Source: Candidatus Latescibacterota bacterium
GTDB taxonomy: Bacteria > Latescibacterota > UBA2968 > UBA8231
Direction: 5' to 3'
Assembly: GCA_965203175.1 (NCBI GenBank)
Contig: OZ241867.1
Coordinates: 2,208,001 to 2,272,000, forward strand
DNA length: 64,000 bases
Each line of letters opens with the position of its first letter. Within the stretch, counting starts at the first letter, position 1. Made by a program: the position numbers and the translations under genes. This document shows, one piece after another, positions 35,791-61,682 of this stretch. The notes beneath the pieces are model-generated. The model was not told the DNA's origin, made no database searches, and saw only the letters and a list, made by a program, of their open reading frames with translations.

Positions 35791-35817
35791 ATCTGGCCTT
35801 CTTTTCTTTTCATAGTG

Positions 35818-36090: not shown

Positions 36091-36098
36091 TGACATAT

Positions 36099-36128: not shown

Positions 36129-36365
36129 GAGGCGATTTCCCAGGCTGGCAGGAACCACATCCCCAGCTATCGGCGGGATTGGGCGAAAACTTGGAGCTAG
36201 TGGACGAGTTGGAATATATCGGTTGAGGCCCAAGGCGAAACAAGCTGCGGTACTTGCGGCGCAGATGCGCCTGTGAGTTTTATTGATAGCAGGTATTTTA
36301 CCTAAAAGATTTACCAGACCCGCGATGCAGGTCAACAATCCGCTTCTACAAGAGGGATGCTGAAG

Positions 36366-44004: not shown

Positions 44005-44958
44005 CTATTGATGCGCTCGGTTAATCAACACGGCACTCAAGATCAACGCCCCCCGCACCACGAGTTGCCAGTATTCGCTGATGTTCATCAGCGTCATGCC
44101 GTTGACCAAGATGCCCAAGAACACCACGCCGATCAGGGTGCCGCGTATCTGACCCTCGCCGCCCATCAAGCTAGTGCCGCCGATGATGACCGCGGCGATC
44201 ACGTCCAATTCCCACCCCCTAGCCGTCGTTGCCGCACCGGACATGATCTCGGCCGACTGCATGATGCCGGCCAGTGCCGCCAAGAAGGCGACAATCGCCA
44301 TGACGGTGATCTTGATTTTGCCGACCTCAATGCCGCTCAATCGCGCGGCCTCGGCATTGCCACCCACTGCGTAGATCGAACGCCCCAGCGTGGTGTAGCC
44401 CATCAGGAAATGCGTCGTCAGAAAGACCAGTGCGAAGACCAGCGCCGGAAAGGGCACTCCGAGGAGATAACCGCCGCCTAGGAAATTGTACCACTCGGGA
44501 AAGGGCGTCAGCGGAAAGCCCCCGGTGATGAGTTGCGCCGATCCGGTCAAGACCGTCATCCACGCCAAGGTGATGATAAAGGTTGGTACCCCGAAGCGCA
44601 CGCGGATGAACCCGCTCAGGGCACCGACGCTCAAGCCCACCAATAAGGCCGCTAGCATGGCTACGGGTACTGCCAATTCTACCGCCAGCCCAGCCCCGGC
44701 CAAGTGCTGCGTCAAATAGGCGGTCAGGCAGCCGGCAAAAGCCACCGCCGACCCCACGCTCAGGTCGATCTCCCCGGAGATGATGACCATCGTCATGCCA
44801 AAGGCGATAATGCCCTGCATGGACACGTTGCGGAGCACGTTGAGCAGATTGTCCACGGAGAAAAACCCTTCGGCCTCAAACGCCAAGATCGCGCAGAGGA
44901 CGAAGAGAATGATCTCCATAATCGAGCGCTTCACCCACGCCAAAAGCCGTTCACGCAT
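44005..44958 (-). CDS. Monosaccharide ABC transporter permease (RbsC-like)
   Basis: GEIDLSVGS, VGGNAEAARLSGI, ELDVIAAVIIGGTSL. Confidence 0.93.
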   Translation of the reverse strand: MRERLLAWVKRSIMEIILFVLCAILAFEAEGFFSVDNLLNVLRNVSMQGIIAFGMTMVIISGEIDLSVGSAVAFAGCLTAYLTQHLAGAGLAVELAVPVAMLAALLVGLSVGALSGFIRVRFGVPTFIITLAWMTVLTGSAQLITGGFPLTPFPEWYNFLGGGYLLGVPFPALVFALVFLTTHFLMGYTTLGRSIYAVGGNAEAARLSGIEVGKIKITVMAIVAFLAALAGIMQSAEIMSGAATTARGWELDVIAAVIIGGTSLMGGEGQIRGTLIGVVFLGILVNGMTLMNISEYWQLVVRGALILSAVLINRAHQ

Positions 44959-46453: not shown

Positions 46454-47436
46454 TGATTGCCGAGGGCGATCAGGTCCGCGAGCCGCGAGCCGAAGGCCCG
46501 CACGCCATCCGGGTCGCGGCGCGCTACAAGCACCCCGTCCATCACTACCTTGGGCGCGACATCTTGCCCTTTGAGCGCCGCGATGGCTAGCCCCATGGCC
46601 TTTGTGCCCAATTCGAAAGGGGTCTGGGTGGTGAGGGCCTGCAAGATGTTGTCCTCGGCGAGCATGAACTCGACGAGCTGCTGGCTGGCATCGGTGCCAA
46701 AGACGACTACCTTCCCCTCGCGGCCGGCGTTTTTGACCGCCATTACCGACCCGACGGTGCCGCCTTCGTTGGCAGACCAGATGATGTCGATTTCTGGGTG
46801 GGCTGTGAGAATGTCCCCGGCTTTCTTGAGCGCCATTTCTGGCAGCCAGGCGTCCTGCTCGGCGACGAATTCCACGCCCGGCAACTGCCCGACCACCTCG
46901 ACGAACCCGTTGCGGCGCGCGTCGCTTTGCTCGGCGAGTTGCGACTTGAAGGCGAGGGTTGCAATTTTGGCTTGCCCTCCTAGCTGCTCTTCGATGTAGC
47001 GCCGTGCCACAAGCCCGGTCTGTCGGCCCAAGTCCCCTTGGTCGCTCTCGATATAGGCGGTGGGGATATCCCCTTCTACCGTTGTATTGTACGTCACCAC
47101 CACGATCCCGGCGTCCTTGGCTCGTTGCAAGGCAGTGGCCGAGGCTTTGGCGCTCAGCGGCGAGATCACAATGGCATCGACGCCGCGCGCGATATAGGTG
47201 TTGACTAGCTGAATTTCCTTGTCTGGCTTATTCGCGCTATTGGCCAGCAGCAGCTCGACGCCCGCTTTGTCGGCCGCGTCCTGCATCCCAAACTGGATCA
47301 GGCGGAAGAATTGGTCCTCCTGAAAGACGATCCCGGCGATTTTGAGTTTTTTCTCTGCTGGTGCTTCCTGCTGATCGCCGCAGCTTAGGGCGACTAGTCC
47401 CAAAACGGCTGCGATAGTCCATTGGCGCAATGTCAT
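46450..47436 (-). CDS. Sugar ABC substrate-binding lipoprotein (RbsB-like)
   Basis: Lipobox LSC, GVDAIVISP, periplasmic binding type I pattern. Confidence 0.9.
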   Translation of the reverse strand: MTLRQWTIAAVLGLVALSCGDQQEAPAEKKLKIAGIVFQEDQFFRLIQFGMQDAADKAGVELLLANSANKPDKEIQLVNTYIARGVDAIVISPLSAKASATALQRAKDAGIVVVTYNTTVEGDIPTAYIESDQGDLGRQTGLVARRYIEEQLGGQAKIATLAFKSQLAEQSDARRNGFVEVVGQLPGVEFVAEQDAWLPEMALKKAGDILTAHPEIDIIWSANEGGTVGSVMAVKNAGREGKVVVFGTDASQQLVEFMLAEDNILQALTTQTPFELGTKAMGLAIAALKGQDVAPKVVMDGVLVARRDPDGVRAFGSRLADLIALGNQ

Positions 47437-48497: not shown

Positions 48498-50285
48498 CTA
48501 TCCCTGTACCGGCTGCAAATTGAGCAACACCAACAGCCACACCCGGTGCCAGTAGGCGCTATTGATGTACGGGCTGTATTCCGAAGGCCAGTTGCGCCAG
48601 TAGGTTTGGTTGTGCGGAATGCGGTGATACCACTGCAAGAGCGGAATCGACGGGAGCTCGGCGAGCCAGATTTCCATGGCTTGGCGATACAATTGCACCA
48701 GTTGCGGATCGCGCGGCGAGACTTCCGCCATTTGATCGACGATCCGGTCGAATTTCTCGTTCTGCCAGCGCCAGACGGACTCGGCGGGCTGGCCGGTTGG
48801 CTGCACGAAGCGGCTGTGGTAGAGCCGCAGCGTAAAATACGGATCGCGCACGCCGCCGGCGTGCCCGGTGATAAAGGAGCGGGCCGTGCCGTGCGATATA
48901 CGGGTGTACGTGTCTGGGGTATTGCGGAAGTCGGCGTCAAAACCTGCTCGCTCTAGCTGGGCGACCAAGACCGGCGTTATGTCTTGGAAGATCGGGAAGA
49001 TGTCGATGAGCATTTCAAATGGCTCGCCGTCTTTGGTCCAATAGCCCTTGGCGGACCGCTGCCAGCCCATGCTCCGCATCAGGGCCGCGCTCTTGTCTAG
49101 GTCAAAGACGCCTATTTCGTATTCCTCCAACAGATCCTCGACCTCGCTGAAGTACGGCCTAAGGGCCGGGTAGTCGGGCAAGGGTAGGAGCGTAAAAATT
49201 CCGGCTCCCTGCCAGCCCACTTCCACTAATTGCTGCCGGTTGATGGCATAGTTGATCGCCCGCCGCACGCCCACGTCTGAGAAGGGGGCTTCAAGGTTGT
49301 TGAAGCCGAGGGAAATGGGCCAGAAATCGACGTAGCCGTACGGCGGCTCGCGCCCGGTCCAAGTCGTCACCTTGGGATTTTTGTCGAGTACGGTCAGGAT
49401 GTTGGGCGGACGCAGGTCGAGGCTGGTGTCAATGTGGTTGGTAATCAGGTTTTGGACGCGCTTGGCCTCCTCCATGTAAGGCAGGTAGATGATGCGCTCG
49501 ACTTTGGGCAGGGATTGGAAGCCGGTGGCCGCGGCCCACCAGTCTGGCCGCAGGTCCCAGATGCGCTGTTGCGGCGTGGAGAGCACCAGCTTGTACGGCC
49601 CGGAAAACACGGGCCAGCCTTTTTGCGGATCGAAGTTTTCAAAGGTGTCTGGCGACTGCCCTTCCCACACGTGCTTGGGCACAATCGGCACCCCACTGCC
49701 GAAGTTGTGGGTGAAATACGAGAAGACAAAGCGCGGATTGGGCGCGGTCAGGGCTATGCGCGCCGTCAGGCTATCGACGGCCACGGCCTCTTGGACCCAA
49801 TTTTTTATGTCGGTTGAATAGGACAACAAAGGTGCGTTGTCCTTGAGCATGTTGATCGTAAAGACCAAGTCGTGCGCCGTCCACGGCATGCCGTCGCTCC
49901 ACTGGACCCCCGGGCGAATGGTGATTTCCACTTCGGTATAGGCGTCGTTGAAGCGGTGGTCTGTGGCGATCCAGGGAATTAGCTTGCCCTTAAAGGCATT
50001 GTAAAAGTACAGCGGCTCGAAAACGAAATTGTACCCAGTGCGCGAGGTGGATTCCGGCCGATAGGGGTTGAAGGTATTGTAGTCTTTGATCTGCCCGGCG
50101 CACGTGCCGCTTTCGGCGCAATCCATGATCAAGGTGCGGTTGCGCGGGACCTGTATTAGTGCCGATTCTTCGACCTCGGCGTCCTCGGGCTGGTCGGCCG
50201 CGTCCGATGGCTCTTGGTCTGAGGGGGTATCGCCGCAGCCGCTAAGCAGCCACGCGCTGAGCAATGTGCAGATACTGCGTTTCAT
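48498..50285 (-). CDS. ABC substrate-binding lipoprotein, family 5
   Basis: Lipobox LSGC, WSDGMPWTAHDLVFT, VRRAINYAINR. Confidence 0.9.
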   Translation of the reverse strand: MKRSICTLLSAWLLSGCGDTPSDQEPSDAADQPEDAEVEESALIQVPRNRTLIMDCAESGTCAGQIKDYNTFNPYRPESTSRTGYNFVFEPLYFYNAFKGKLIPWIATDHRFNDAYTEVEITIRPGVQWSDGMPWTAHDLVFTINMLKDNAPLLSYSTDIKNWVQEAVAVDSLTARIALTAPNPRFVFSYFTHNFGSGVPIVPKHVWEGQSPDTFENFDPQKGWPVFSGPYKLVLSTPQQRIWDLRPDWWAAATGFQSLPKVERIIYLPYMEEAKRVQNLITNHIDTSLDLRPPNILTVLDKNPKVTTWTGREPPYGYVDFWPISLGFNNLEAPFSDVGVRRAINYAINRQQLVEVGWQGAGIFTLLPLPDYPALRPYFSEVEDLLEEYEIGVFDLDKSAALMRSMGWQRSAKGYWTKDGEPFEMLIDIFPIFQDITPVLVAQLERAGFDADFRNTPDTYTRISHGTARSFITGHAGGVRDPYFTLRLYHSRFVQPTGQPAESVWRWQNEKFDRIVDQMAEVSPRDPQLVQLYRQAMEIWLAELPSIPLLQWYHRIPHNQTYWRNWPSEYSPYINSAYWHRVWLLVLLNLQPVQG

Positions 50286-50344
50286 GTTAGACCTCGCCTC
50301 GATTTAGAGTGAAAGGGCCGCGCCGATTGAGCGCGAGCAAACCT

Positions 50345-52072
50345 TTAACCTCGCGTTGGTTGTAGGTTCAACAATACTAAAAGCCACGTTCGGTGCCAGT
50401 AGGCTGTATTGATATACGGATTGTCCGCTGACGGCCAGTTGCGCCAGTAGGTTTGGTTGTGTGGCAAGCGGTGGTAAAATTGCAACAAGGGTACGGCTGG
50501 CAACTCGCGCAGCCAAATCGCCAGCGCCTTTCTGAACAGGACCACCAAGCGCGGATCGTCGGGTGCGGTCTGTCCCATCTGATCAACGAGTGCGTCATAT
50601 TCGGAGTTTTTCCACCGCCAGAAGGTCGGCGTCGCCGTGCCCGTGGGCTGGGCGAAGCGGCTGTGGTAGAGCCGCAGGGTAAAGTACGGGTCGCGCACCG
50701 AGCCTCCATTGCCAAATATATAGGTTTTAGCCGCGCCCGTAGTCATCCGCGTGTAGTTGTCCGAGGTCATCCGCATGTTGGCTGCAAAGCCAGCCCGCTG
50801 CAACTGCTCGACTAGAATCGGCGCGATGTCTTGGAAAGTTTGGCTGATGTCGAGCAGCACCTTGGCCTGTGTCCCGTCCCGAGTCCAGATGCCTTCGGCG
50901 TCCTGCTGCCACCCGGACTCCTGCATCAGGGCCGCGCTGCGGGCTGGATCGAATAGGCCCACCGGATGTTGTTCTAGCAAGTCTTGAACTTGGTCCGTGT
51001 AGTGCCTGAGCCGCGGGAAGTCGGGGAACGGCAATAGGGTTGGTTTTCCTGCTCCTTGCCAGCCGACTTCCACTAGCTGCTCGCGGTTGATGGCGTGGTT
51101 TACGGCCCAGCGGAAGGCCAGCTCGTCGTAGGGCGACTCTTGGGTATTGAAGCCCAGCGAGAGGGGCCACCAGTCCAGATAGCCATAGGGCGGCTCTTGG
51201 CCACTCCAGGTCGTCGCATTGGGGTTTTGCTCTAGTACTGTGCGGATGTTGGGCGGCAGCATGTCGGCGCACAGGTCCATGGCATTGGTAGCGAGGTTTT
51301 GGACCTGTTTGGCTTCCTCCATGTAGGGCAGGTAGATCAGCCGCTCGACTTGCGGCGGCTGGTGGAAGCCGATTTTGGCGGCCCACCAGCCCTCGCGCCG
51401 ATCCCAGATCCGTTGCTCTGGCACGGAATGCGCTAGGCGGTACGGACCACTGACTACGGGCCAGCCCTGCGCTATATCGAAGTTGGCGAAGGTCTTGGGA
51501 TCTTGGCCTTCCCAGATGTGCCGGGGCACAATCGGTACGCCATTGTCGAAGTTGTGGGTGAAATACGTGAAGACGAAGCGCGGGTTGGGGGCCGTCAATG
51601 CAATGCGCGCCGTCAGGCTGTCGCTGGCCACGGCTGTTTTTACCCAGGTCTGCATATCGACTGCAAAGGTCAGTTCCGGCGCGTGGTCGCGGAGCATGTT
51701 GATCGTAAAGACCACGTCGTGCGCCGTCCACGGCTGCCCATCGCTCCACTCGGCTCCGGGCCGAATTTTTATGGTGACCTCGGTGTAGTCTGCGTTGTAC
51801 TCGTGCCCGGTGGCGATCCAGGGGATGATCTCGTCGCGGTAGGCGTTGTAAAAGTAGAGCGGCTCGTAGAGGAAGTTATATCCCGTGCGCGAGACCTTGC
51901 CGGGCAGGTAGGGATTAAAGGCGTCGTAGTCTTGGAACTGGCCGCTGCACGTGCCCTGATCGACGCAGTCGGTGACCAGGGTGCGCTCGCGCGGCACGTG
52001 TTGCAGGCTACCTTCGCCGCTACAAGCGGCGCAGACCAGAGCGAGGATTAGTGAGAAAGCGGGGCGCGTCAA
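50345..52072 (-). CDS. ABC substrate-binding lipoprotein, family 5 (paralogue)
   Basis: TTG start after AGGAG, lipobox AAC, WSDGQPWTAHDVVFT; closely similar to its neighbour. Confidence 0.88.
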   Translation of the reverse strand: MTRPAFSLILALVCAACSGEGSLQHVPRERTLVTDCVDQGTCSGQFQDYDAFNPYLPGKVSRTGYNFLYEPLYFYNAYRDEIIPWIATGHEYNADYTEVTIKIRPGAEWSDGQPWTAHDVVFTINMLRDHAPELTFAVDMQTWVKTAVASDSLTARIALTAPNPRFVFTYFTHNFDNGVPIVPRHIWEGQDPKTFANFDIAQGWPVVSGPYRLAHSVPEQRIWDRREGWWAAKIGFHQPPQVERLIYLPYMEEAKQVQNLATNAMDLCADMLPPNIRTVLEQNPNATTWSGQEPPYGYLDWWPLSLGFNTQESPYDELAFRWAVNHAINREQLVEVGWQGAGKPTLLPFPDFPRLRHYTDQVQDLLEQHPVGLFDPARSAALMQESGWQQDAEGIWTRDGTQAKVLLDISQTFQDIAPILVEQLQRAGFAANMRMTSDNYTRMTTGAAKTYIFGNGGSVRDPYFTLRLYHSRFAQPTGTATPTFWRWKNSEYDALVDQMGQTAPDDPRLVVLFRKALAIWLRELPAVPLLQFYHRLPHNQTYWRNWPSADNPYINTAYWHRTWLLVLLNLQPTRG

Positions 52073-52207
52073 AACTTCTCCTTTTGGCGGTGGCCGCCAA
52101 AACGTATCAACGCGCGTTGGGAGGGTCAACCAGCTTGAGCGAAGCCGCCAACCCGCCTATACTACCTCCATCCGATTCCGAACTCCATCAACCACTCCGG
52201 AAAGACT

Positions 52208-53812
52208 ATGTACGATCTGTTAATCCGCAACGCCCAGCTCCTCGACGGCAGCGGCCAGCCGGCTTTCCGCGGCGACATCGCCGTTGAGCAGGGCCGCATC
52301 GTGGCCATCGGAGATCTTGCCGCAGCCGAGGCGAGTCGCACTATCGATGCCGAGGGCTGCATCGCCTGCCCCGGCTTTATCGACATCCACACGCATTCGG
52401 ACTTGACTATCGCCCTCGACGGCCGTGCGCTCAGTTCCCTGACGCAGGGCATTACGACCCAAGTCATGGGCAACTGCGGCGTGTCGGCCGCGCCCACCCG
52501 CGACTACGAGCCGTACTACGGCCCGCTCGACCCGGCGATGACCCGTGGTTTGGCGTGCGATTGGACGCATTTCGGCGACTATTTCCAGCGGCTCGAAGCC
52601 AATGGATTGGGCACGAATACCGCGACCTTGGTCGGCCACGGCAACGTGCGCGTCGCCGCCATGGGCTACGACGACCGCCCGCCGACTGCGGCTGAAATGG
52701 AGCAGATGAAGGCACTCGTCGCCCGCGCAATGGAAGACGGCGCGATGGGGCTGTCGTCGGGCTTGGCGTACGCGCCCGGTCCGTATGCGGCGCTGGAAGA
52801 ACTCGTCGAGTTGGGGAAGGTCGTCGCTGAGTACGGCGGCATCTACACCTCGCACATCCGCAACCAGACCGAGTCGATTGCCCAAGCTGTCGGCGAGGTC
52901 ATTGCCGTCGGTGAGCAAGCCTCGGTTGCAGCCCACGTCTCGCACATGCAGCCCGGTGCGCCAATGATCGGCGCGACCCGCGACCTGCTCGCTACCATCG
53001 ACCAGAAACGCCGCGAGGGCTGCGACATTAGCTGCGACGCCATTCCCTATACGATTGGCAGCACTACCCTCAAGTCGCTGTTGCCTCCTTGGGCCTTGGC
53101 TGGCGGCGACGAGGAGTTGCTGAGGAGGTTACAAGACCCGGAGACTCGCGCCAAGATCGAACAGGACACCGTGCAGTACGGGGCCGAGAGCGGCGGCAGC
53201 CGCAAGCGCAACTTGGCGCGGGATGGAGAATGGGACAAGATCTGGCTGGGCAGCGCCGAACAAAACGCCGCCCTAGTCGGCCTGAGCTTTGCCGAGATTG
53301 GTCGGCGGCGCGGCCAAACCCCTCACGACGCGGTTTGCGACATTCTCGTCGAAGAGCGCGCGCGGCCGTGGATGCTGGCTGAGGACGTGTCTGAGGAGGA
53401 CTTCCTCAACATCGCCCGCCACTCTACCGGCGGCGTCATCTCCGACGGCTTCTCGCTGGTGCCCGAAGGCACCTTGGCCGAGGGCAAGCACCATCCCCGC
53501 TCCTATGGGGCCTTCCCCTACTTCTTGCGCCACTTCGTCCGCGAGCAAGGCGCGCTGCGCTGGGAAGAGGCCATCCACAAGCTCACTGGCCACCCCGCCG
53601 CCCGCTTCCGCTTGCGCGCGCGCGGCCTGTTGCGCGAAGGCTACTGGGCCGACCTCGTGGTCTTCGACCCCGCAGCCATCGGCGAGTGCGCCGACTTTGC
53701 CGACCCCTATCGCTATCCGCAGGGCATTGACTGCGTAATTGTCAATGGACGGATTGCCGTTGAACGAGGAGAAATAGCAGACAGCCGCGCCGGACAGATC
53801 GTCCGGGCATGA
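52208..53812 (+). CDS. N-acyl-D-amino-acid deacylase (D-aminoacylase)
   Basis: PGFIDIHTHSD, GNCG, SHIR, HPRSYGAFP, ADLVVFDP. Confidence 0.92.
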   Translation: MYDLLIRNAQLLDGSGQPAFRGDIAVEQGRIVAIGDLAAAEASRTIDAEGCIACPGFIDIHTHSDLTIALDGRALSSLTQGITTQVMGNCGVSAAPTRDYEPYYGPLDPAMTRGLACDWTHFGDYFQRLEANGLGTNTATLVGHGNVRVAAMGYDDRPPTAAEMEQMKALVARAMEDGAMGLSSGLAYAPGPYAALEELVELGKVVAEYGGIYTSHIRNQTESIAQAVGEVIAVGEQASVAAHVSHMQPGAPMIGATRDLLATIDQKRREGCDISCDAIPYTIGSTTLKSLLPPWALAGGDEELLRRLQDPETRAKIEQDTVQYGAESGGSRKRNLARDGEWDKIWLGSAEQNAALVGLSFAEIGRRRGQTPHDAVCDILVEERARPWMLAEDVSEEDFLNIARHSTGGVISDGFSLVPEGTLAEGKHHPRSYGAFPYFLRHFVREQGALRWEEAIHKLTGHPAARFRLRARGLLREGYWADLVVFDPAAIGECADFADPYRYPQGIDCVIVNGRIAVERGEIADSRAGQIVRA

Positions 53813-55086
53813 GCTATGCCCAGCTAACGCGCTTCATGTTGCCCTTGGTGGTGACGGCGCTGGTGCAAGAGCTCAGCGGCCAGTTCCTCAACGGCGGCAT
53901 GGCGCGGATGCCGCGGGCGGTCGAAACGCTGGCCGCCTTTGGCTTGGCCTTTGGCTTGGCTCTATTCCTCGCTGGCACCTTATCTCAGGTACGGCAGCTC
54001 GGCTTGGTCCTCGTCGAGCACACCCAAGGCTACCGAGTCTGCTTCCGCTTTGTGCTCGCCGCTGGGCTGCTATTGGCCGGGATCTTAGCCAGCTTGGCGC
54101 TGACGCCTCTGGGAACTTGGATCATCAACGATCTGCACGGGGTCGATCCCGCACTCGGCGATGCAGTGCGCTTGGCCCTGCTGTTGCTTGTTCCCTTCCC
54201 CGTGCTGTACGGGATGACGCGCTTTTATAGCGGCGAACTCATCCGTGTCCGCCGCACCGACATTCCCGCTTACGCCATTACCACGGGGATCGCCCTCAGC
54301 ATCCTTGCGGTTTTTGTGCTGCTGCCGCTCGGCTTCGTCCGCCAGACTCCCATCTTACTGCCGGTCCTCGCCACGTACACGGGTGCCCTCGCCGAGCTTG
54401 GCGTGGTCGCGTGGGGCCGCTGGCGCTTGGTGCGCTGGCCCGAGCCAGCTAATGAGCCGCTCCTGACCTACTTCTACGTCCTGCGCTTTTTTTGGCCCTT
54501 GGCGCTGATTATGGCGGTGCAGGCTGGCACCCGGCCGCTGATCAACGTATTCGTCGCCCGCAGTGCCGATGGCACCGAAGCGCTGGCCGTGCTGACCGTC
54601 GTCTATGCGCTCGGCCACATTCCCTATGGCTGGCTCAACGAACTGCGCAATCTGCCGACGGCCTTCCGCCAAGAAGGGGATTTGAGCAAGATCCGCCGCT
54701 TCTGCTGGGGCTGTTGTCTGTTTTCCTGTGCGTGGATGGCGGTGTTGTTTTGGACGCCGGCGGTCGATTACATACTCGGCACTTGGATCGGCATTGGCCC
54801 CGATTTGATCGCCCACTGCAAGACGCCGCTGCTTCTCTTCATGGGCTTTCCCTTTGTCGTCAGCCTGCGCAGCTACTTCCACGGCATTGGCCTGCTTCAG
54901 CACCGCACCCAAGCCATGGCACCGAGCGCTCCGTCGCGCGTAGCGACCGTCTTGCTGGTGCTAGCCCTGCTGGCCAATTTAGATCTGCACGGCGCGACCC
55001 AAGCCGTGGGAGCCTTAGTTAGCGGCCACACTGTGGAGGCCTTGGTCGTCTGGTGGAGCATCGGGCGCGGTAGGCGCGCCTCTTGA
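53809..55086 (+). CDS. ANKH-like (MOP/MATE superfamily) membrane protein
   Basis: Multi-TM protein. IINDLHGVD, FWPLALI, GHIPYGWLNELR, FWTP and HGAT match motifs of animal ANKH as recalled. Confidence 0.75.
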   Translation: MSYAQLTRFMLPLVVTALVQELSGQFLNGGMARMPRAVETLAAFGLAFGLALFLAGTLSQVRQLGLVLVEHTQGYRVCFRFVLAAGLLLAGILASLALTPLGTWIINDLHGVDPALGDAVRLALLLLVPFPVLYGMTRFYSGELIRVRRTDIPAYAITTGIALSILAVFVLLPLGFVRQTPILLPVLATYTGALAELGVVAWGRWRLVRWPEPANEPLLTYFYVLRFFWPLALIMAVQAGTRPLINVFVARSADGTEALAVLTVVYALGHIPYGWLNELRNLPTAFRQEGDLSKIRRFCWGCCLFSCAWMAVLFWTPAVDYILGTWIGIGPDLIAHCKTPLLLFMGFPFVVSLRSYFHGIGLLQHRTQAMAPSAPSRVATVLLVLALLANLDLHGATQAVGALVSGHTVEALVVWWSIGRGRRAS

Positions 55087-55220
55087 CGCAGCTAGGTCTG
55101 TGTCCAACGTTCTACGCAAATTTTGTGGAGGGGCAACCGCTCCTGCAGAATTCCCATAGGAACCGTCCTTTGTGGCGGTCTTGATCCAACGACAAAAACT
55201 CGGGAAAGGACGACATAACC

Positions 55221-56855
55221 ATGAATGGCAACCAAGCCATTGCCCACATCCTCAAGGCCGAAGGCGTCGAGTGGCTGTCGGCTTTTCCCAACCAGCCGCT
55301 GATTGACGAGGGCGCGCGCGCTGGTATCCGCCCCATTATCTGTCGCCAGGAGCGGACGGGTGTCAACATGGCCGACGGCTTCAGCCGCACGACTAATGGC
55401 CGCCCTTTTGGCGTCTTCACCATGCAGACCGGGCCGGGAGCTGAAAACGCGCTCGGCGGCGCGGCCCAAGCCTACGCCGATGCCATCCCCTTGCTGCTCC
55501 TGCCCGGCGGCGTGTCCACGGCCCGAACGCAAGTGCCGCCCAACTTCGAGGCGGTGGACAATTATCGCGGCATCACCAAATGGGCCGCGAACATCAACCA
55601 AGTCGAGCGCATCCCCGAGCTGATGCGCCGCGCCTTTAGCCAGCTCGTCCACGGCCGGCCCGGCCCGGTGCTCGTGGAAATCCCCAGCGACTTAGGTGCC
55701 GCTGAATTTCCCAGTGACCTCGACTACCAACCGGTCAAAGCCTGCAAATCCGCAGCGGATTCGGACGCGGTCCGCGACTTGGTTGCCGCGCTGGTCAAGG
55801 CCGAATGCCCGATCATCAACGCTGGGCACGGCGTGATGTGGGCCGAAGCTACGGACCAGCTCGTGGCCCTCGCCGAACTGCTCAACGTACCCGTTATGAC
55901 CACCTTGGCCGGCAAGAGCGCGTTTCCCGAAAACCATCCGCTCGCGCTGGGCACTGGCGGCCACACTGGCACGCTGATGGTCGATCGCTTCTTGCAAAAG
56001 ACCGACTTCGTCTTGGGTGTGGGCACTAGTTTTACCATCTCGGTTTTCAATGCGCCTATGCCCGATCGCGCCGTCTTGGCGCAGGTGACAAACTGCGCGG
56101 AAGATCTCAACAAGGACTATCGGATCGACTTGGGGGCTATCGGCGATGCGCGGATCGTGCTGGAGCAGATCAGCGAGGAAGTCCGCCGGCAGCTTGGGGC
56201 CGACGGGCGAGGAGATGGCGGAGTTGCGGCTGAGATCGCGGCGATCCGCGCTGAGTTCAACGCCGAGTGGGCACCGCGATTTCGCTCGGACGAGGTGCCG
56301 ATAAACCCCTACCGGGTCTTCGCCGAGCTCGCCCGCGCCGTGGATGTGCCCAATACCATCATTACCCACGACTCGGGCTATCCCCGCGATCAGCTCGTGC
56401 CTTTCTGGCGGCCCCAAGTTCCCAGAGGGTACATGGGCTGGGGCAAATCGACCCAGCTTGGCTACGGCTTGGGGTTGGCCTTGGGAGCCAAGTTAGCCGC
56501 GCCGGACAAGCAGGTCATCAACATCATGGGCGACGCGGCTTTTGGCATGGCGGGTCTCGATATTGAGACCGCAGTGCGCGCAGAGATTCCCATTCTCACG
56601 GTGGTGCTCAACAACGGTGTGATGACGCACTACAACCACCACATGCCTTACGCGACCGAGCACTGGCAGAGCGACCAACTCGGCGGCCACTACGCGCAGG
56701 TGGCCGAGGCGCTTGGTGCCCACGCCGAGCGCGTTGAAACGATCCCGGACTTGGCACCGGCCATCCAACGCGCCCTCGCGGCCAACCGCGAAGGCCGAGC
56801 CGCTCTGTTGGAGGTGATGACCAAGGCGGAAGAAAACGTAGCCAAATTTTGGTAA
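55221..56855 (+). CDS. ThDP-dependent enzyme (acetolactate synthase-like family)
   Basis: RQERTGVNMADG, GPGAEN, GRPGPV, GDAAFGM...VLNN. Confidence 0.9.
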   Translation: MNGNQAIAHILKAEGVEWLSAFPNQPLIDEGARAGIRPIICRQERTGVNMADGFSRTTNGRPFGVFTMQTGPGAENALGGAAQAYADAIPLLLLPGGVSTARTQVPPNFEAVDNYRGITKWAANINQVERIPELMRRAFSQLVHGRPGPVLVEIPSDLGAAEFPSDLDYQPVKACKSAADSDAVRDLVAALVKAECPIINAGHGVMWAEATDQLVALAELLNVPVMTTLAGKSAFPENHPLALGTGGHTGTLMVDRFLQKTDFVLGVGTSFTISVFNAPMPDRAVLAQVTNCAEDLNKDYRIDLGAIGDARIVLEQISEEVRRQLGADGRGDGGVAAEIAAIRAEFNAEWAPRFRSDEVPINPYRVFAELARAVDVPNTIITHDSGYPRDQLVPFWRPQVPRGYMGWGKSTQLGYGLGLALGAKLAAPDKQVINIMGDAAFGMAGLDIETAVRAEIPILTVVLNNGVMTHYNHHMPYATEHWQSDQLGGHYAQVAEALGAHAERVETIPDLAPAIQRALAANREGRAALLEVMTKAEENVAKFW

Positions 56856-56866
56856 AGGAGGAGCAG

Positions 56867-57949
56867 ATGGACCAATACAAAGCCGTTCTCATCGGCTGCA
56901 GCCGCATGGGGGCTTTCATCGATAACGAAGTCCCGGCCAATATGCGCCCGTACTCTCACGCCGCTGGATACGAGGCTTGTGAGCGCACGGATCTCATCGC
57001 CTGTTCGGATCTGCGACCCGAGGTGATGGAAAGGGTCGGCGCGCGCTACGGCATCCCTGCGGATAAGCAGTACACTGACTATCGCGAAATGCTCGCCCGC
57101 GAAAAGCCGGACATCGTCAGCGTGGCCACCCAGCCCGAGCACCGCGCCGAGATCGTCATCGCAGCGACCGAAGCAGGTGCTCGCGCGATCTACGCGGAAA
57201 AGGCGTTCTCGGCCTCGCTGGAGGAGGCCGACCGCATGGTCGAAGCCTGCCAGCGCCACAACGTCGCGCTCAACATGGGTACCAATCGCCGCTTCCACCC
57301 CGGCTACGACCAGATGAAGGCCATCATCGACTCCGGGGAAATCGGCGCGTTGCAAACCCTCATTATCCACCAGACCAGTGCGCTTTTTAACGGCGCCAGC
57401 CACAGCTTTGACCTGCTCCAGCGCCTCAACTCCGACGCTCCTGCCGATTGGGTGCAGGCGCATTTGCCCAATGGCGACGAGATCATCGACGGCGATATCC
57501 TGCGCGAAGACCCCACTGGGCACGGCATGATCCAGTTCGCCAACGGGGTTACTGCGTACGCGCTCAATTCGGGTCGGGGACTGGAAGTGGAAGCCGTCTG
57601 CGAAAAAGGCGTGGTGACGGCGCTGGGCAATGATAGGGAGTGGCAGTTGCGGGCACCGGTAGCACGCGATCACCGGGGCCGCAATAAATTGGGCTTGGTG
57701 GAATTCCCTGCTTTCGAGGACCGGGCTTCGACGCTTTGCTTGGTCGAGGATTTGGTACGCTCTCTCGATACGGGCGAGCCTCCGCGCGGTGGCGCAGAAC
57801 TGGCGCGGGCTAATACCGAACTGATTTTCGCGTTTGTGGAATCGCACCAGCGCGGCGGTGCTCGCGTGGAGTTGCCGCTTGAGGGGAGCGTTTATCGGCT
57901 AGAGCGGGATCGCGGGCCGAGGCAGCCGAAGTACGAGGCAGACGCCTAA
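56867..57949 (+). CDS. Gfo/Idh/MocA oxidoreductase
   Basis: IGCSRMG, EKPDIVSVAT, YAEKAF. Confidence 0.9.
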   Translation: MDQYKAVLIGCSRMGAFIDNEVPANMRPYSHAAGYEACERTDLIACSDLRPEVMERVGARYGIPADKQYTDYREMLAREKPDIVSVATQPEHRAEIVIAATEAGARAIYAEKAFSASLEEADRMVEACQRHNVALNMGTNRRFHPGYDQMKAIIDSGEIGALQTLIIHQTSALFNGASHSFDLLQRLNSDAPADWVQAHLPNGDEIIDGDILREDPTGHGMIQFANGVTAYALNSGRGLEVEAVCEKGVVTALGNDREWQLRAPVARDHRGRNKLGLVEFPAFEDRASTLCLVEDLVRSLDTGEPPRGGAELARANTELIFAFVESHQRGGARVELPLEGSVYRLERDRGPRQPKYEADA

Positions 57950-58947
57950 GTCCTTAGAGCACGACCGTCGGTTATGCCGCAGCCCTTGAACAAGGTCCGC
58001 TGCACGGCGCGGTCGTGCGCGAGGGCAAAGTCCGGCGTCTTTTCGCCGCGAATGCACGCGGCTAGCTCCCGCAGTAAGCTCGGCGGGGCCGGTCCTGGAT
58101 CAAGCTCCACGTCCTGCCACTCGCCGGCTTGATACTCTTCGGTCTCCTGAGCCAAGAAGACGCGCAGCTTGTTTGAGCCGAGTGGGTCGTGCAGCAGGGT
58201 TCCTTGGGTGCCGTGGACCTCGATTCGCCGGTCCATGCCGATCTGCATGGCGGTCGTATCCACGATGCCGATTCCATCTCGACACTCGTGGACGACCACT
58301 GCGTTATCGACTTCGGCTCGCTCCCCATAGTGCTTGCCCAACACGCCCTGGACGGCCACTGGCTCGCCCATCATCGCCACCATTAAATCCACCAAGTGCC
58401 CGGCCATCTCAAAGTACACGCCGCCGTGATAGGCGGTAAATTCCCCGTATAGCTGCTTGTGCCAGTTGATCGGTTTGGGTATGTGGCCGCGATACATGAA
58501 GACCTGCCCTAGACAGCCTGACCCCACCAAGCGCAGCATCTCGGCTACTGCCGGATTGTAGCGCCACATATAGGCCATTTGTAGCATCAACCCCTCGTCC
58601 TCGGCGAACTTGTGGAGCCGTTCCAATTGGGCCAGATCGACGCCGGCCGGCTTTTCCAACAACACGTGCTTGCCAGCGGCGAGCGCTCGTTCGGCATAGT
58701 CGAGGTTTTGATATACGTGTCCTTCTACGACCACGGCCTCTGCTTGGCTATTTAACACGTTTTCGATGGAGTCAAAAACTGGAATGTGCAGCCCGTATTC
58801 CGCCCACCGCTCCAGATTTTGCTGAATCACTGCGGGGTCGGCATCGTACATACCCACTAGCTCCACTTCGCCCGGCCTTGCCGCGGCCTCCCGCACGTGC
58901 ATGGACGCGTGACTGTGCCAAGCGCCTAGGAATGCAAATCTCAACAT
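57946..58947 (-). CDS. Gfo/Idh/MocA oxidoreductase
   Basis: AGKHVLLEKP, YMWRYNP, GGVYFEMAGHLVD. Confidence 0.9.
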   Translation of the reverse strand: MLRFAFLGAWHSHASMHVREAAARPGEVELVGMYDADPAVIQQNLERWAEYGLHIPVFDSIENVLNSQAEAVVVEGHVYQNLDYAERALAAGKHVLLEKPAGVDLAQLERLHKFAEDEGLMLQMAYMWRYNPAVAEMLRLVGSGCLGQVFMYRGHIPKPINWHKQLYGEFTAYHGGVYFEMAGHLVDLMVAMMGEPVAVQGVLGKHYGERAEVDNAVVVHECRDGIGIVDTTAMQIGMDRRIEVHGTQGTLLHDPLGSNKLRVFLAQETEEYQAGEWQDVELDPGPAPPSLLRELAACIRGEKTPDFALAHDRAVQRTLFKGCGITDGRALRT

Positions 58948-58961
58948 GTGTTTATTCCCTC

Positions 58962-60230
58962 CTACCAAGTAGTTACAAATTCGTCCACGCCAAAGCCCTC
59001 GGGCATCTCGCTGTTAAAGGTGCGCAGGGGCCGGGATTCAAAGTTCGGCGGATCGGCTGCGGGCCGGAGATCGGCGTACATGTCGCTGTAGTGCTGGTGG
59101 ACGCGAGCCTCATCTTGCAGCAACCGCTCGTTGAGTGCAGCCAAGCGGCTTTGTAGGGCCTCGGCCTCGGCGGCGGTGAAGCGCTGCGCCATGTCTTCGG
59201 CGTAGTTCGCGGGCGGTGATCCGTCGACCAGCGGCTTGCGCTCCTGCTCGGACATCTGGGCGATCTCCGGTCGGTGCAGGAAGACGACTTTGTTGGCGAT
59301 TCGGCACAATAGTACCACGCTCACCATGCGGCCGAACTCGCCCGGGTGCAGTTCGGCCAAGCAGGTGCGGAATTTTTGCTCGTCGCGGGCAATCAGCGCG
59401 CGGAAGAGCGTCTCAATCTGATCCCGCTCTCGATCGTAGCACTCGGTCCAGTGGGCAAACTGGGCCTCGGCCGCGGGTGAGAGGTGTTGCCGGAAGCCGT
59501 CGGCGTGATACCAGTCGAGATGGTGGTGGTACGAGAAAATCTGGCCGCCAAAGGAGCGGTAACCGAGGTGGATGGTGCGGCGCATCCGGCTGGTGTACTT
59601 GCTGCCCCAGTGCATCATCAGGTTGGGATAGACGATGCCGTCGCCGGGCTGTAGCTCGACGGGGATGCCGTCTTTTAGTGGCACTTTGGGGTCTAGCATG
59701 AGCTGCCGTCGCTGGGCTTCGTTGGTCGGCTGTTTGTGGCTTTCGGGGAGGATCCAGAATACGTCGTCTTCGTAGAGGGCGATGTTCCACTGCACGTATC
59801 CGGGAGCGTTGGCCATTAGATCCGCTTGCATGCCGCTGAGCGGTGCCTGCTCAGCCGAGCTGGCGTCGCGGTGCCAGTCCGTGTACCCGTAATCGACCAG
59901 CCCGCTGCACAGCGCGCCAAAGGCGGTGAGGGCCGTCACCGGAGCCTGCATGAGTTAGGAACTGACGCCGAAGGTGGTCTCGTCGAGGCAGAAGTCGATG
60001 ACATCGGCGGTCTCGGCGTCAATCGAATTTATGTTCAGTCGCGGATGGATTTTTTCATACCAAGCACCGCCGAGCGGATCGCCGGGTTGGCGCGCGGCCG
60101 CGGAGCGCGCCTTTTCCCGGTCCACCATCCACTCGATAGCGAGCCGCATCGCGTCCAACCGCTCGGGCGGTACGACGTTGCGCAAGATCAGAAAGCCTTG
60201 GCGGCGGAATTGTTGCAGATCGACGTGCAT
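58962..60230 (-). pseudogene. PhyH-like dioxygenase interrupted by in-frame TAA (59955-59957)
   Basis: QFRRQGFLILRNVVP...GVSS-TAA-LMQAP...WHRD...LQPGDGIVY..HWG, all in one frame. Confidence 0.75.
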
Positions 60231-60239: not shown

Positions 60240-61682
60240 CTATTGGTTGGGAGATCGCTGCATGGCTTGTTCGATCAAGAGCCGATCCTGCTGTGTGGCT
60301 TGTTCGATTAAGAGCCGATCTTGCTGGCTTTGCCGCACCTGCGCCTCTATAGCTACCGGGTCCCACTCGGACAATAGCCGCTCTTGGAGGTCGGCTAGGG
60401 TGGCCGCGTGGGCTGGCTGGTCTGCTAGGTCGTCGAACTCGTTGGGGTCGGCCTCTACGTCGTATAGCTGGGGTGAATCGCCCAAACTGTAGTGGAGCTT
60501 GTAGCGACCGCGTCGCAACATGGCTGTTGGTCGCTGCACGCCGTGGGCGAGGTATTCGGAGAATGCTTCGTCCTTCCAGTTTGCGTCTTGCCCTTGCAGC
60601 AATTTCAGCAGACTATCGCCGTCCAGCAGACCTGCGCTGGGTGCGTCGGCGACTTCGACGATGGTCGCTACTAGATCCACCAGCGACACTACTTCGCTGA
60701 TGCGCCGACCGGCTGGGATCTGACCGGGGTAGACCATTTGCAGTGGCACTTTGGCGGATGCTTCGTACATGCTCGACTTCCGCCACATGCCGTGCTCGCC
60801 GTTCATTTCTCCGTGATCGCTGAAATGCACGATGAGCGTGTTGTCGCGCTGTCCGGTTTCTTCTAGGACGGCGAGCAAACGGCCGATCTTCTCGTCGAGA
60901 TAGGTAATGAGTCCATAGTAACCGGCGCGCGCGCGGCGCACCTGTTCTTCGGGAAAATCGACTCCCCCGAACATGGCCCGCATCCGCTGGTGTACAGGGT
61001 GCTGGCTTTCGAGGTGGCCGGGGGGAATCTCCGGCATGTCGATTTGGTCGAGGGGATAAAGGTTGAAAAATCGCTCGGGCACTACGAGTGGAAAATGCGG
61101 CGCAATAAACGAGACATTCAGCGCCCAAGGCCGCTCCTTGCGGGCCGGATCGCGCAGATAGGCCAGCGCTTGTTCCTCGACCAGATCATCGACTTCGATC
61201 TCCAAGGTCGTCCCCGGTCCGGCTTCGGCAACCCCACCCCAGGGCTTGTCGGCCGGCGGTGTGCCCTTGCTCCAGTCGGGCGTGCCGCGCAGGACGCCGT
61301 CTTTGGTCCACAGTTCGGCGTGCAAATCGCGCGCTAGCTGGGCGCGAAAACCGTGCAGTTGGTCGGGGCCGCAAAAGTGCTGTTTGCCCGAGAGTACCAC
61401 ATCGTAGCCAACAGCGCGCAGCCGATGGGCCCAAGTGACCGCATCAGACGGCAGGGGAGTGGCATTGTCAAAGGCACCAATCTGGTTGATGTAGCGGCCG
61501 GTCATAAATGACATCCGCGACGGCAGGCAGAGTGGAGAGTTGCAATAGGCGTTGGCAAAGGTTGCGCCCTCGGCGGCCAATTGATCCATAAAGGGCGTCT
61601 GCACGAGCGGATGTCCGTAGGGGCCGCTGTACATGGGTGCGTGCTCGTCTGTCATAATGAGCAGGATATTGGGGTGACTCAC
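60240..61682 (-). CDS. Sulfatase (choline-sulfatase-like)
   Basis: PNILLIMTDEH, CLPSR (CxPxR), GKQH, SDHGEM, KSSMYE. Confidence 0.92.
   Translation of the reverse strand: MSHPNILLIMTDEHAPMYSGPYGHPLVQTPFMDQLAAEGATFANAYCNSPLCLPSRMSFMTGRYINQIGAFDNATPLPSDAVTWAHRLRAVGYDVVLSGKQHFCGPDQLHGFRAQLARDLHAELWTKDGVLRGTPDWSKGTPPADKPWGGVAEAGPGTTLEIEVDDLVEEQALAYLRDPARKERPWALNVSFIAPHFPLVVPERFFNLYPLDQIDMPEIPPGHLESQHPVHQRMRAMFGGVDFPEEQVRRARAGYYGLITYLDEKIGRLLAVLEETGQRDNTLIVHFSDHGEMNGEHGMWRKSSMYEASAKVPLQMVYPGQIPAGRRISEVVSLVDLVATIVEVADAPSAGLLDGDSLLKLLQGQDANWKDEAFSEYLAHGVQRPTAMLRRGRYKLHYSLGDSPQLYDVEADPNEFDDLADQPAHAATLADLQERLLSEWDPVAIEAQVRQSQQDRLLIEQATQQDRLLIEQAMQRSPNQ

What the first reader, a model, noticed from the sequence alone, without database searches (positions are those of the whole stretch)
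53809..55086. Bacterial homologue of animal ANKH coupled to a D-aminoacylase
Seen: motifs IINDLHGVD, FWPLALI, RPLINVFVAR, GHIPYGWLNELR, FWTP, APS and HGAT. From memory these parallel human ANKH (IINKLHHVD, WWPLALI, RPIVNLFVSR, GHMPYGWLTEIR, FWTP, HGAT) in the same order over the full length. Established: ANKH mediates ATP/citrate release and PPi homeostasis. The gene overlaps the deacylase stop (ATGA). Inference: a bacterial model for ANKH function or origin, possibly exporting an organic anion made by the deacylase.
Basis: partly seen in the sequence, partly recalled or inferred. Interest (0 to 1): 0.7.

Follow-up and report, generated by a model that had tools for sequence, protein, structure and literature searches.

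The report
Bacterial ANKH-family membrane transporter gene
This bacterial gene encodes a close relative of the animal ANKH transporter that controls tissue mineralisation, so it could serve as a simple laboratory model for that poorly understood protein, but its link to the neighbouring deacylase gene is only local.

Summary
ORF 53809-55086 (+, 425 aa) holds every quoted motif, and its ATG overlaps the upstream stop as ATGA.

It is a true ANKH-family member:
- Pfam PF07260 is its only match, at 172 bits against a cut-off of 22, with no MatE or MurJ match.
- It is 34-35% identical over its full length to named fish and sponge ANKH.
- It keeps all three arginines conserved in eukaryotic ANKH.
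- A confident model has the MOP (MATE/MurJ-like) fold.

In a careful tree, its bacterial clade (named members: Latescibacterota, Gemmatimonadota, Chloroflexota) groups with animal, choanoflagellate and chlorarachniophyte ANKH at 100/98 support. Other ANKH-like clusters lie outside.

The "coupling" to the D-aminoacylase-family gene is lineage-specific:
- Of 29 close loci it is overlapping in 12, adjacent in 5, displaced in 5, absent in 6 and not assessable in 1.
- None of 50 distant loci has it upstream.
- The downstream TPP enzyme is the steadier neighbour, present in 26 of 29.

The substrate is unknown. An organic anion is inferred from ANKH biology.

Databases already file such proteins under ANKH, and this scan earlier noted a more distant one on other DNA. 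This is a new member of a known kind, of moderate interest as a model for ANKH structure, mechanism and origin.

The parts
53809..55086 (+). ANKH-family (PF07260 / SLC62-like) MOP-fold membrane transporter, 425 aa
   Evidence: ORF and motifs. PF07260 172 bits, E 2.8e-50, model positions 9-343 of 344, sole Pfam hit. 34-35% identity to named fish and sponge ANKH. AF2 model pLDDT 89.5 with MATE/MurJ fold. Clade with eukaryotic ANKH at 100/98.
53809..53812 (+). ATGA start/stop overlap between the amidohydrolase gene and the transporter gene
   Evidence: Read directly from the sequence. The same overlap geometry occurs in 12 of 29 close loci.
52208..53812 (+). Amidohydrolase of the D-aminoacylase structural family, 534 aa; substrate unassigned
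   Evidence: Pfam Amidohydro_3. NCBIfam best hit PRK09061 at 198 bits, below its cut-off of 340. PDB relatives: D-aminoacylase 1m7j 256 bits, N-acyl-D-glutamate deacylase 3gip 250 bits, carbohydrate de-N-acetylase 9kb1 229 bits.
55221..56855 (+). Thiamine-pyrophosphate-requiring enzyme (NCBIfam PRK06154 equivalog), 544 aa; the most stable neighbour of the transporter
   Evidence: NF004807 728 bits against a cut-off of 607. Three TPP_enzyme domains. Downstream of the transporter in 26 of 29 close loci. PDB best hits BbmA 208 bits and glyoxylate carboligase 171 bits.
56849..57949 (+). GFO/IDH/MocA-family oxidoreductase, overlapping the TPP gene's end by 7 nt
   Evidence: Pfam GFO_IDH_MocA. Found downstream in 26 of 29 close loci by the cluster count, and follows the TPP gene directly or after an inserted ORF.
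50345..52129 (-). SBP_bac_5 solute-binding protein, divergent from the amidohydrolase gene
   Evidence: Pfam SBP_bac_5, 172 bits. It travels with the amidohydrolase, not with the transporter, in relatives where the two are separated.
48498..50285 (-). Second SBP_bac_5 solute-binding protein (paralogue)
   Evidence: Pfam SBP_bac_5, 180 bits. About 61-66% identical to its neighbour by cross-hits.
57946..58968 (-). Second GFO/IDH/MocA-family oxidoreductase, convergent
   Evidence: Pfam. Present in 11 close loci.

Best explanation
The gene encodes a genuine prokaryotic member of the ANKH (SLC62, Pfam PF07260) family. It is a roughly 12-helix secondary transporter with the MOP-superfamily (MATE/MurJ-like) fold, located in the inner membrane of an uncultured bacterium whose closest named relatives are Latescibacterota. 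Shown: family membership, fold class, retention of the conserved polar and arginine positions of eukaryotic ANKH, and a phylogenetic position in the bacterial clade nearest to eukaryotic ANKH. Inferred, at about 45% confidence for this step alone: it moves a small organic anion such as a carboxylate, or possibly a nucleotide, across the membrane. This rests on three points. Animal ANKH mediates release of citrate, malate, succinate and ATP. The three membrane-embedded arginines are conserved. Its neighbours across bacteria are small-molecule catabolic enzymes (TPP-dependent, PLP-dependent and pyruvate-aldolase families). In this genus it is probably co-transcribed with the upstream amidohydrolase (ATGA overlap) and lies just upstream of a TPP enzyme and an oxidoreductase. 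Only the TPP-oxidoreductase linkage is stable. The amidohydrolase adjacency is a local arrangement, not a feature of the family.
For: Membership. PF07260 172 bits against a cut-off of 22, covering model positions 9-343 of 344, with no other Pfam family at E<=0.01. All 120 best relatives listed carry PF07260. An exhaustive phmmer search places named animal and choanoflagellate ANKH from rank 21, at 31-39% identity and 160-230 bits. BLASTP to fish ANKH-B gives 34% over 437 columns, E 4e-71; to sponge Sycon ANKH 35%, E 4e-76. Its bacterial clade scores 113-187 bits on the Pfam model, as high as choanoflagellate ANKH at 158-169.

Conserved residues. Of 11 polar or charged positions conserved in at least 80% of 17 eukaryote-side sequences, the window protein matches 8 exactly (Q25, N28, Q238, R242, N246, R354, R377, E410) and 1 conservatively. 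All 13 bacterial rows keep the three arginines. Window L231, invariant in 27 bacterial sequences, aligns with L244 of the fish protein in the WPLAL motif. ANKH L244S is an inactivating human mutation (PMC7371198, passages).

Fold. AF2 model pLDDT 89.5, pTM 0.87. Foldseek gives 58 PDB matches at E<=0.001, led by PfMATE 6fhz and MurJ 7wax, with query-normalised TM-scores (TMq) of 0.68 and 0.76.

Tree. ANKH-proper clade of 36 rows at 100/98; eukaryote-side clade of 20 rows at 96/93.

Real bacterial gene. One copy on a 6.58 Mb single contig. Present in 29 of 30 sampled congeners.

Expression hint. Contigs from four RNA libraries cover parts of the gene, and two bridge the junction with the amidohydrolase gene.

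Context. TPP enzyme downstream in 26 of 29 close loci, and TPP-like enzymes beside 5 of 50 distant ones. Other distant neighbours are PALP, Aminotran_5, HpcH/HpaI aldolase, DHDPS, SDR, Zn-ADH and lactonase.
Against: No transport assay exists for any bacterial member, so substrate and direction are inferred only. Neighbourhoods differ between sub-clades, so no single pathway points to a substrate. Two positions conserved in eukaryotes, an Asp and a Gln in the helix at residues 151-171, are Gly160 and Ser164 here, so coupling or specificity may differ. The protein lacks the C-terminal extension of animal ANKH: it is 425 aa, and the alignment ends near residue 444 of the 496-aa fish protein. MurJ flippases give the highest query-normalised TM-scores, so a lipid-linked substrate is not excluded by fold. 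RNA-library contigs may derive from DNA carry-over, as the tool warns. Most deep tree rows are unnamed metagenomic proteins. One eukaryote-database transcript, P0143 (long branch, 1.74), fell outside both clades in the quick tree and was dropped from the careful tree. The equivalence of fish and human residue numbering at L244 is assumed, not tested.
Confidence: 0.8

Rival explanations
1. One reading: the transporter is dedicated to the neighbouring deacylase and exports an organic anion that the deacylase releases.
For: ATGA overlap in the window, and the same overlap in 12 of 29 close loci, plus 5 more with a gap of 59-383 nt. Contigs from two RNA libraries bridge the junction. Deacylases of this family release a carboxylate (established enzymology of D-aminoacylases; relatives).
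Against: In close relatives the amidohydrolase is displaced by 1.6-3.2 kb in 5 loci and absent within 7 kb in 6. A DNA methylase and a large partner ORF sit between or in place of it in L015, L017, L018, L020, L021 and L027, while transporter-TPP-oxidoreductase stays contiguous. None of 50 distant loci has a deacylase upstream; one has a 33%-identical amidohydrolase downstream. The deacylase moves together with the SBP_bac_5 genes instead.
Confidence: 0.15
2. It is a generic MATE efflux pump or Wzx/MurJ-type flippase with no specific affinity to ANKH.
For: The fold search returns MATE, MurJ and WzxE structures. The protein atlas lists clusters auto-named 'MATE family efflux transporter' and MbnM among look-alikes.
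Against: No MatE or MurJ Pfam match at E<=0.01. The genome's own MatE and MurJ matches lie elsewhere, and the gene is not among them. None of 103 representatives hit MatE at E<=1e-5, while 86 of 103 hit PF07260. Identity to solved MATE and MurJ chains is 11-17%, against 34-35% to animal ANKH. There are no cell-wall or polysaccharide-synthesis neighbours.
Confidence: 0.05
3. A recent transfer of an animal (host) ANKH gene into a host-associated bacterium.
For: The window carries five ankyrin-repeat genes, a sulfatase and a sialate esterase. From my own knowledge, such eukaryote-like features are common in sponge symbionts. The sponge Sycon ANKH is the best-scoring eukaryotic hit.
Against: Identity to any animal ANKH is only 31-39%. 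The bacterial clade spans records named Latescibacterota, Gemmatimonadota, Chloroflexota and Handelsmanbacteria, with groundwater and lake records by title. Sycon sits inside the animal clade, not with the bacteria. The gene has no introns, has bacterial neighbours, and overlaps its neighbour's stop.
Confidence: 0.03

Closest known systems
Animal ANKH / SLC62A1 (progressive ankylosis protein; Pfam PF07260; TCDB 2.A.66.9 as listed in PMC9333335, passage seen)
   Same: Same Pfam family at full model coverage. 34-35% identity over the whole membrane domain. Shared motifs including WPLAL, (S/T)RPxxNxFV, PYGWL, FWTP, APS and HGAT. All three conserved arginines plus Q25, N28, Q238, N246 and E410. 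Same clade at 100/98.
   Different: Bacterial, intron-less and in an operon-like array. About 70 aa shorter, lacking the C-terminal tail. Gly160 and Ser164 stand where eukaryotes conserve Asp and Gln. Function untested: animal ANKH mediates cellular release of citrate, malate, succinate and ATP (PMC7371198 and PMC13664135, passages).
MATE transporters (e.g. PfMATE 6fhz, NorM, human MATE1)
   Same: Same MOP fold. Foldseek E 1.8e-8, query-normalised TM-score (TMq) 0.68 to inward-facing PfMATE. The two lobes are internally duplicated, visible here as a second N-lobe/C-lobe HSP of 24% identity, E 7e-7.
   Different: No MatE Pfam match. 13-18% identity. MATEs typically export cationic or aromatic compounds by H+/Na+ antiport (established knowledge), whereas this family conserves arginines.
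MurJ lipid II flippase (MVF family, PF03023)
   Same: Highest query-normalised TM-scores in the fold search, 0.69-0.76 to inward-closed and occluded MurJ. From my own knowledge, MurJ also uses cavity arginines for an anionic substrate.
   Different: No PF03023 match. 11-17% identity. No cell-wall genes nearby. MurJ has 14 helices (my own knowledge), whereas this model shows about 12 long membrane helices.
More distant bacterial 'ANKH-like' clusters
   Same: Weak PF07260 matches of 25-70 bits and similar length.
   Different: They lie outside the ANKH-proper clade.

Membership tests
ANKH family (Pfam PF07260 / SLC62 / TCDB 2.A.66.9) | Match to the PF07260 profile above its gathering score over most of the model | tested here: met
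   172 bits against a cut-off of 22, E 2.8e-50, model positions 9-343 of 344, the only Pfam family at E<=0.01.
ANKH family (Pfam PF07260 / SLC62 / TCDB 2.A.66.9) | Direct, full-length sequence similarity to named animal ANKH proteins | tested here: met
   Fish ANKH-B 34% over 437 columns, E 4e-71. Sycon ANKH 35%, E 4e-76.
ANKH family (Pfam PF07260 / SLC62 / TCDB 2.A.66.9) | Phylogenetic placement with animal ANKH, apart from other MOP-like clusters | tested here: met
   Careful ML tree of 54 rows: a 36-row clade holding the window's bacterial group and the eukaryotic ANKHs has 100/98 support. 28 rows of the 82-row quick tree were left out, as listed.
ANKH family (Pfam PF07260 / SLC62 / TCDB 2.A.66.9) | Conserved polar and charged membrane residues of eukaryotic ANKH, including three arginines | tested here: met
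   8 of 11 identical, 1 conservative, 2 different (G160, S164). R242, R354 and R377 are present in 13 of 13 bacterial rows, and in 17, 17 and 15 of 17 eukaryote-side rows.
ANKH family (Pfam PF07260 / SLC62 / TCDB 2.A.66.9) | Multi-pass MOP-superfamily fold | tested here: met
   Predicted model only: pLDDT 89.5, pTM 0.87. MATE and MurJ top hits at probability 1.00. No solved ANKH structure was found by sequence or by fold.
ANKH family (Pfam PF07260 / SLC62 / TCDB 2.A.66.9) | Mediates release of ATP, citrate or other organic anions across the membrane | not testable with these tools
   Requires transport assays. The animal function is taken from PMC7371198 and PMC13664135 (passages).
MATE family (PF01554) | Two MatE domains detectable by the Pfam profile | tested here: not met
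   No MatE hit at E<=0.01. The genome's six MatE-domain matches, in three genes, lie elsewhere.
MurJ / MVF family (PF03023) | Match to the MurJ profile | tested here: not met
   No hit. The genome's two weak MurJ matches are at other places.
Proposed 'ANKH-deacylase' gene pair | Adjacency conserved across the transporter's relatives | tested here: not met
   Close loci (29): overlapping 12, adjacent with a gap 5, displaced 5, absent 6, not assessable 1. Distant loci: 0 of 50 upstream.

The most novel reading that the evidence does not exclude
Eukaryotic ANKH (SLC62) descends from a single ancient transfer out of this bacterial clade. On that reading, these bacterial proteins, which keep the full set of conserved arginines and polar residues, are the ancestral form of the animal mineralisation regulator and a faithful, tractable model for its still unsolved structure and disputed substrate. 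The tree supports a common clade at 100/98. The outer branches are bacterial as far as they are labelled: one named Planctomycetota MAG, one protein on a 2.16 Mb contig, and atlas clusters listed as 100% Bacteria. One unnamed cluster of the close group (P0129) branches before the split at 92/85, which would make the eukaryotes nested. The direction of transfer and the root are not established.
Probability: 0.45. Interest if true: 0.7.

Novelty: new member of a known kind. Interest (0 to 1): 0.55.

Why it matters
ANKH controls extracellular pyrophosphate and citrate, and its mutations cause craniometaphyseal dysplasia and chondrocalcinosis. The 2026 review says structure-function relationships "remain poorly defined" (PMC13356900, passages). 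No solved structure turned up by sequence or by fold.

From my own knowledge, bacterial homologues have opened up several human SLC families structurally, for example LeuT for SLC6 and VcINDY for SLC13. This clade is 34-39% identical to animal ANKH and retains the conserved arginines and the WPLAL leucine that aligns with the disease position L244. It is a realistic candidate for purification, structure determination and proteoliposome assays. Those could settle whether the family carries ATP, PPi or carboxylates directly.

The tree also bears on where the animal gene came from. On the bacterial side, it adds an uncharacterised transporter family to catabolic gene clusters of Latescibacterota, Gemmatimonadota and Chloroflexota.

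Tried and rejected
- NCBIfam has no model for the transporter.
- A PDB sequence search gave only chance antibody hits at E 0.11-0.58.
- Eight literature searches found no paper on a bacterial or prokaryotic ANKH. Hits for 'AnkH' in bacteria were the unrelated Legionella ankyrin effector. Only open-access full text and bioRxiv were searched. TCDB and subscription papers could not be checked.
- The scan's earlier notes hold nothing by sequence.
- A homologue search with the outer-clade protein P0160 returned no organism names, so that clade's domain stays unlabelled.
- The promoter/terminator scan gave counts no higher than shuffles (2 against a mean of 1.2; 3 against 4.9), so it says nothing about the operon.
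I could not test whether R242, R354 and R377 line the central cavity.
- My simple greedy ORF caller missed or mis-called the transporter ORF in 7 of 50 distant loci (L049, L054, L055, L061, L070, L079, L080). Their immediate neighbours were not read properly.
- Stretches of the gene without RNA-contig cover in single runs carry no meaning.
- A recent host-to-symbiont transfer and a generic MATE identity were considered and rejected (see the rival explanations).
- No AU topology test was run.
Full report
**1. The observation**

The upstream ORF 52208-53812 ends with TGA inside the sequence ATGA, which also supplies the transporter's ATG. The start is supported by conservation: 27 bacterial homologues align from residue 1.

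**2. What the protein is**

- Pfam gives one hit only, PF07260 (ANKH). It scores 172 bits against a gathering score of 22, E 2.8e-50, covering model positions 9-343 of 344. Neither MatE nor MurJ appears at E<=0.01.
- NCBIfam has no model for it.
- No PDB chain matches by sequence.
- The word-indexed search found 383 relatives among 8000 scored candidates. All of the best 120 listed carry PF07260. Most are called 'hypothetical protein', and three JGI entries are called 'progressive ankylosis protein'. The organism names shown are Latescibacteria, Anaerolineae and Gemmatimonadetes MAGs.
- The exhaustive phmmer search over 1.84 billion cluster representatives gave 1237 clusters at E<=0.001, 601 at <=1e-10 and 68 at <=1e-30.
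- From rank 21 onward the hits include proteins whose clusters are named progressive ankylosis protein homologue. The sources are the sponge Sycon ciliatum (39%, 230 bits), sturgeon and other fish (36%, 214 bits), Branchiostoma, a crinoid, Saccoglossus, Hydractinia and a bryozoan. There are also choanoflagellate proteins from Hartaetosiga, Salpingoeca and Monosiga.
- Pairwise BLASTP gives 148 identities in 437 columns (34%, E 4e-71) to the fish protein and 35% (E 4e-76) to the sponge protein, over essentially the whole bacterial protein.

**3. Family boundary**

I scanned 103 of the 150 listed representatives, those of 400 aa or more, against Pfam.
- 86 hit PF07260 at E<=1e-5, 17 hit nothing, and none hit MatE.
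- The scores form tiers. Fish ANKH scores 730 bits, invertebrate animals about 220-360, choanoflagellates 158-169, and the window's bacterial clade 113-187. The remaining clusters score 25-70 bits or nothing.
- By the profile, the window's clade is therefore as ANKH-like as choanoflagellate ANKH.

**4. Fold**

AlphaFold2 on the 27-sequence alignment gave mean pLDDT 89.5 and pTM 0.87, with about twelve long helices. Foldseek against the PDB gave 58 matches at E<=0.001, all shown being MOP-superfamily transporters:
- inward-facing PfMATE 6fhz, E 1.8e-8, query-normalised TM-score (TMq) 0.68
- MurJ 7wax, TMq 0.76
- human MATE1 and WzxE

Identity to these chains is 11-18%. No ANKH structure appeared.

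A second BLASTP segment aligns the window's C-lobe (217-366) to the fish N-lobe (5-156) at 24% identity, E 7e-7. This reflects the internal duplication typical of this fold. The genome has three ordinary two-domain MATE genes and two weak MurJ-type matches elsewhere. The window gene is hit by neither model.

**5. Conserved residues**

In an alignment of 13 bacterial and 17 eukaryote-side sequences, the invariant positions besides the initiator Met are G142, L144, P230, R242, A260 and R354. Nearly invariant positions include N28, L231, Q238, P243, N246, Y273, W275, P317, T367, R377 and E410.
- Eleven polar or charged positions are conserved in at least 80% of the eukaryote-side rows. The window protein matches eight exactly, one conservatively (E21 for D), and differs at two (G160, S164).
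- All three arginines are kept in 13 of 13 bacterial rows.
This protein is a much closer relative that keeps it.
- Window L231, in the WPLAL motif, aligns with residue L244 of the fish protein by my count. L244S inactivates human ANKH (PMC7371198, passages). That fish and human numbering coincide here is my assumption.

**6. Phylogeny**

A quick tree of 82 rows and a careful IQ-TREE of 54 rows (LG+C20+F+G4 by PMSF, ultrafast bootstrap/SH-aLRT) agree.
- In the careful tree, a 36-row 'ANKH-proper' clade has 100/98 support.
- Within it, a 20-row eukaryote-side clade has 96/93. It contains three choanoflagellates (100/100). It also contains a protist group that includes an MMETSP transcript, and a group whose named relatives are the chlorarachniophytes Amorphochlora and Bigelowiella. 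The animals are in it too, with the sponge branching first (97/92).
- A 15-row bacterial group that includes the window protein and the named loci has 93/87.
- One unnamed close cluster (P0129) branches before the split, at 92/85.
- Outside lie an unnamed trio (P0160 group), a named Planctomycetota MAG protein (P0194), and a seven-row group that includes a protein on a 2.16 Mb contig.

Caveats:
- The root is set by my choice of a distant cluster as outgroup.
- For the careful tree I left out 28 rows. Six were flagged as long branches (P0255, P0179, P0165, P0231, P0195, P0143). The other 22 were dropped to thin the set, and are listed.
- P0143, a eukaryote-database transcript, fell outside both clades in the quick tree.
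- No AU test was run.

**7. Distribution**

- The gene is single-copy on a 6.58 Mb one-contig genome.
- In the window's phylum, 66 of 168 genomes have a match. That is 29 of 30 in the genus besides G000, 56 of 75 in its family, 9 of 31 in a second family, and 0 of 61 in twelve other families.
- None of the 14 well-known control genomes has it.
- In one-genome-per-species contigs, 125 relatives were confirmed and 79 loci kept. Their titles name Latescibacterota, Gemmatimonadota, Caldilineaceae/Anaerolineae/Chloroflexia and Handelsmanbacteria.

**8. The 'coupling' to the deacylase**

The upstream enzyme belongs to the D-aminoacylase structural family: 1m7j scores 256 bits and N-acyl-D-glutamate deacylase 3gip scores 250. 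A carbohydrate de-N-acetylase (9kb1, 229 bits) is nearly as close, and the best NCBIfam model is below its cut-off. Its substrate is therefore open.

I searched all 79 loci with the window's neighbour proteins.

| Close loci (transporter identity 68% or more), n = 29 | Count |
|---|---|
| Amidohydrolase ends in the same overlap | 12 |
| Directly upstream with a 59-383 nt gap | 5 |
| Displaced by 1.6-3.2 kb | 5 |
| Absent within 7 kb | 6 |
| Not assessable (contig end) | 1 |

- In the displaced and absent cases, a DNA methylase and a large partner ORF often sit upstream of the transporter.
- The two SBP_bac_5 genes travel with the amidohydrolase.
- The TPP enzyme lies downstream in 26 of 29 close loci, and the GFO-type oxidoreductase follows.
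- Among 50 distant loci (identity 61% or less), none has an amidohydrolase upstream. One has a 33%-identical amidohydrolase downstream. Five have a different TPP enzyme (26-28% identity) beside the transporter.
- Other recurrent distant neighbours are a PLP enzyme upstream (10 loci) with a class-V aminotransferase downstream on the other strand (12 loci). HpcH/HpaI aldolase, DHDPS-family aldolase, SDR, Zn-ADH, lactonases and MFS or SSF carriers also recur.

The adjacency is therefore a local feature of one lineage. The common theme is small-molecule catabolism, often of 2-oxo-acid type.

**9. Expression**

Contigs from four metatranscriptome libraries of four studies lie on parts of the gene at roughly 90-97% identity.
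- Two contigs bridge the amidohydrolase/transporter junction: X17 record 3 (53474-53843) and X20 record 19 (53603-54030).
- One run carries a relative in which the transporter is preceded by other sequence.
- These are assembled contigs, and DNA carry-over cannot be excluded.

**10. How it most likely works**

Shown: it is an ANKH-family, MOP-fold membrane protein with the family's conserved arginines. Inferred: it acts as a secondary transporter of a small organic anion. Three things support that inference:
- the animal protein's documented role in release of citrate, malate, succinate and ATP (PMC7371198 and PMC13664135, passages)
- the conserved cationic residues
- the catabolic neighbours

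Direction and coupling ion are unknown.

**11. Novelty**

Databases already place such bacterial proteins in PF07260, and some pipelines name them 'progressive ankylosis protein'. This scan had noted a distant example before. I found no paper discussing prokaryotic ANKH in eight searches. The passages I read in two ANKH papers do not mention bacteria. These searches cover open-access text only.

I rate this a new member of a known kind. It has added value as a close, arginine-retaining model for ANKH and as evidence that eukaryotic ANKH shares a well-supported clade with a specific bacterial group.

Noticed in passing
window 24666-38075: Five large ankyrin-repeat protein genes: four on the minus strand at 24666-34298 (664-895 aa each) and one on the plus strand at 36357-38075. 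They coincide with the strong negative AT skew (-0.38 to -0.48) in the composition profile. These are unrelated to ANKH despite the similar name.
   Followed up: partly
window 38114-39493 and 60243-61682: A sialic-acid-specific acetylesterase (SASA) and a sulfatase with an SGSH_C domain. Together with the ankyrin genes this hints at a host-associated lifestyle.
   Followed up: no
L015, L017, L018, L020, L021, L027 (about 2.4-6.9 kb in locus coordinates): In several congeners, a DNA methylase (N6_N4_Mtase) and, in all but L027, an ORF of about 880 aa (a restriction-modification-like module) sit directly upstream of the transporter, between or in place of the amidohydrolase.
   Followed up: partly
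L002, L003, L005, L021, L027, L029 (about 10.0-13.7 kb in locus coordinates): An ORF of about 980 aa (cluster c16) is inserted between the TPP enzyme and the GFO oxidoreductase in some congeners but not in the window. It was not annotated.
   Followed up: no
window 55087-55220; run X18 record 11: A relative in one RNA-library run has 870 other letters between the transporter and the TPP gene, where the window has 148 (table 5).
   Followed up: no
window 48498-52129: Two paralogous SBP_bac_5 solute-binding genes lie in tandem with no ABC permease or ATPase gene beside them. The nearest ABC genes (44008-47436) are of the sugar-type Peripla_BP_4/BPD_transp_2 kind.
   Followed up: no
G005, G007, G009, G019, G145, G146 (genome search rows): The Pfam match to the transporter in six congeners is reported with '1 TAG' inside and an open frame of 425 aa. 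The match probably runs a few codons upstream across a stop before the ATG, rather than the gene being broken. This was not checked.
   Followed up: no
P0155 and P0168 (representative hits): Two long proteins fuse an ANKH domain to EGF/fibulin or FATC domains. These are probably eukaryotic gene-model fusions.
   Followed up: no
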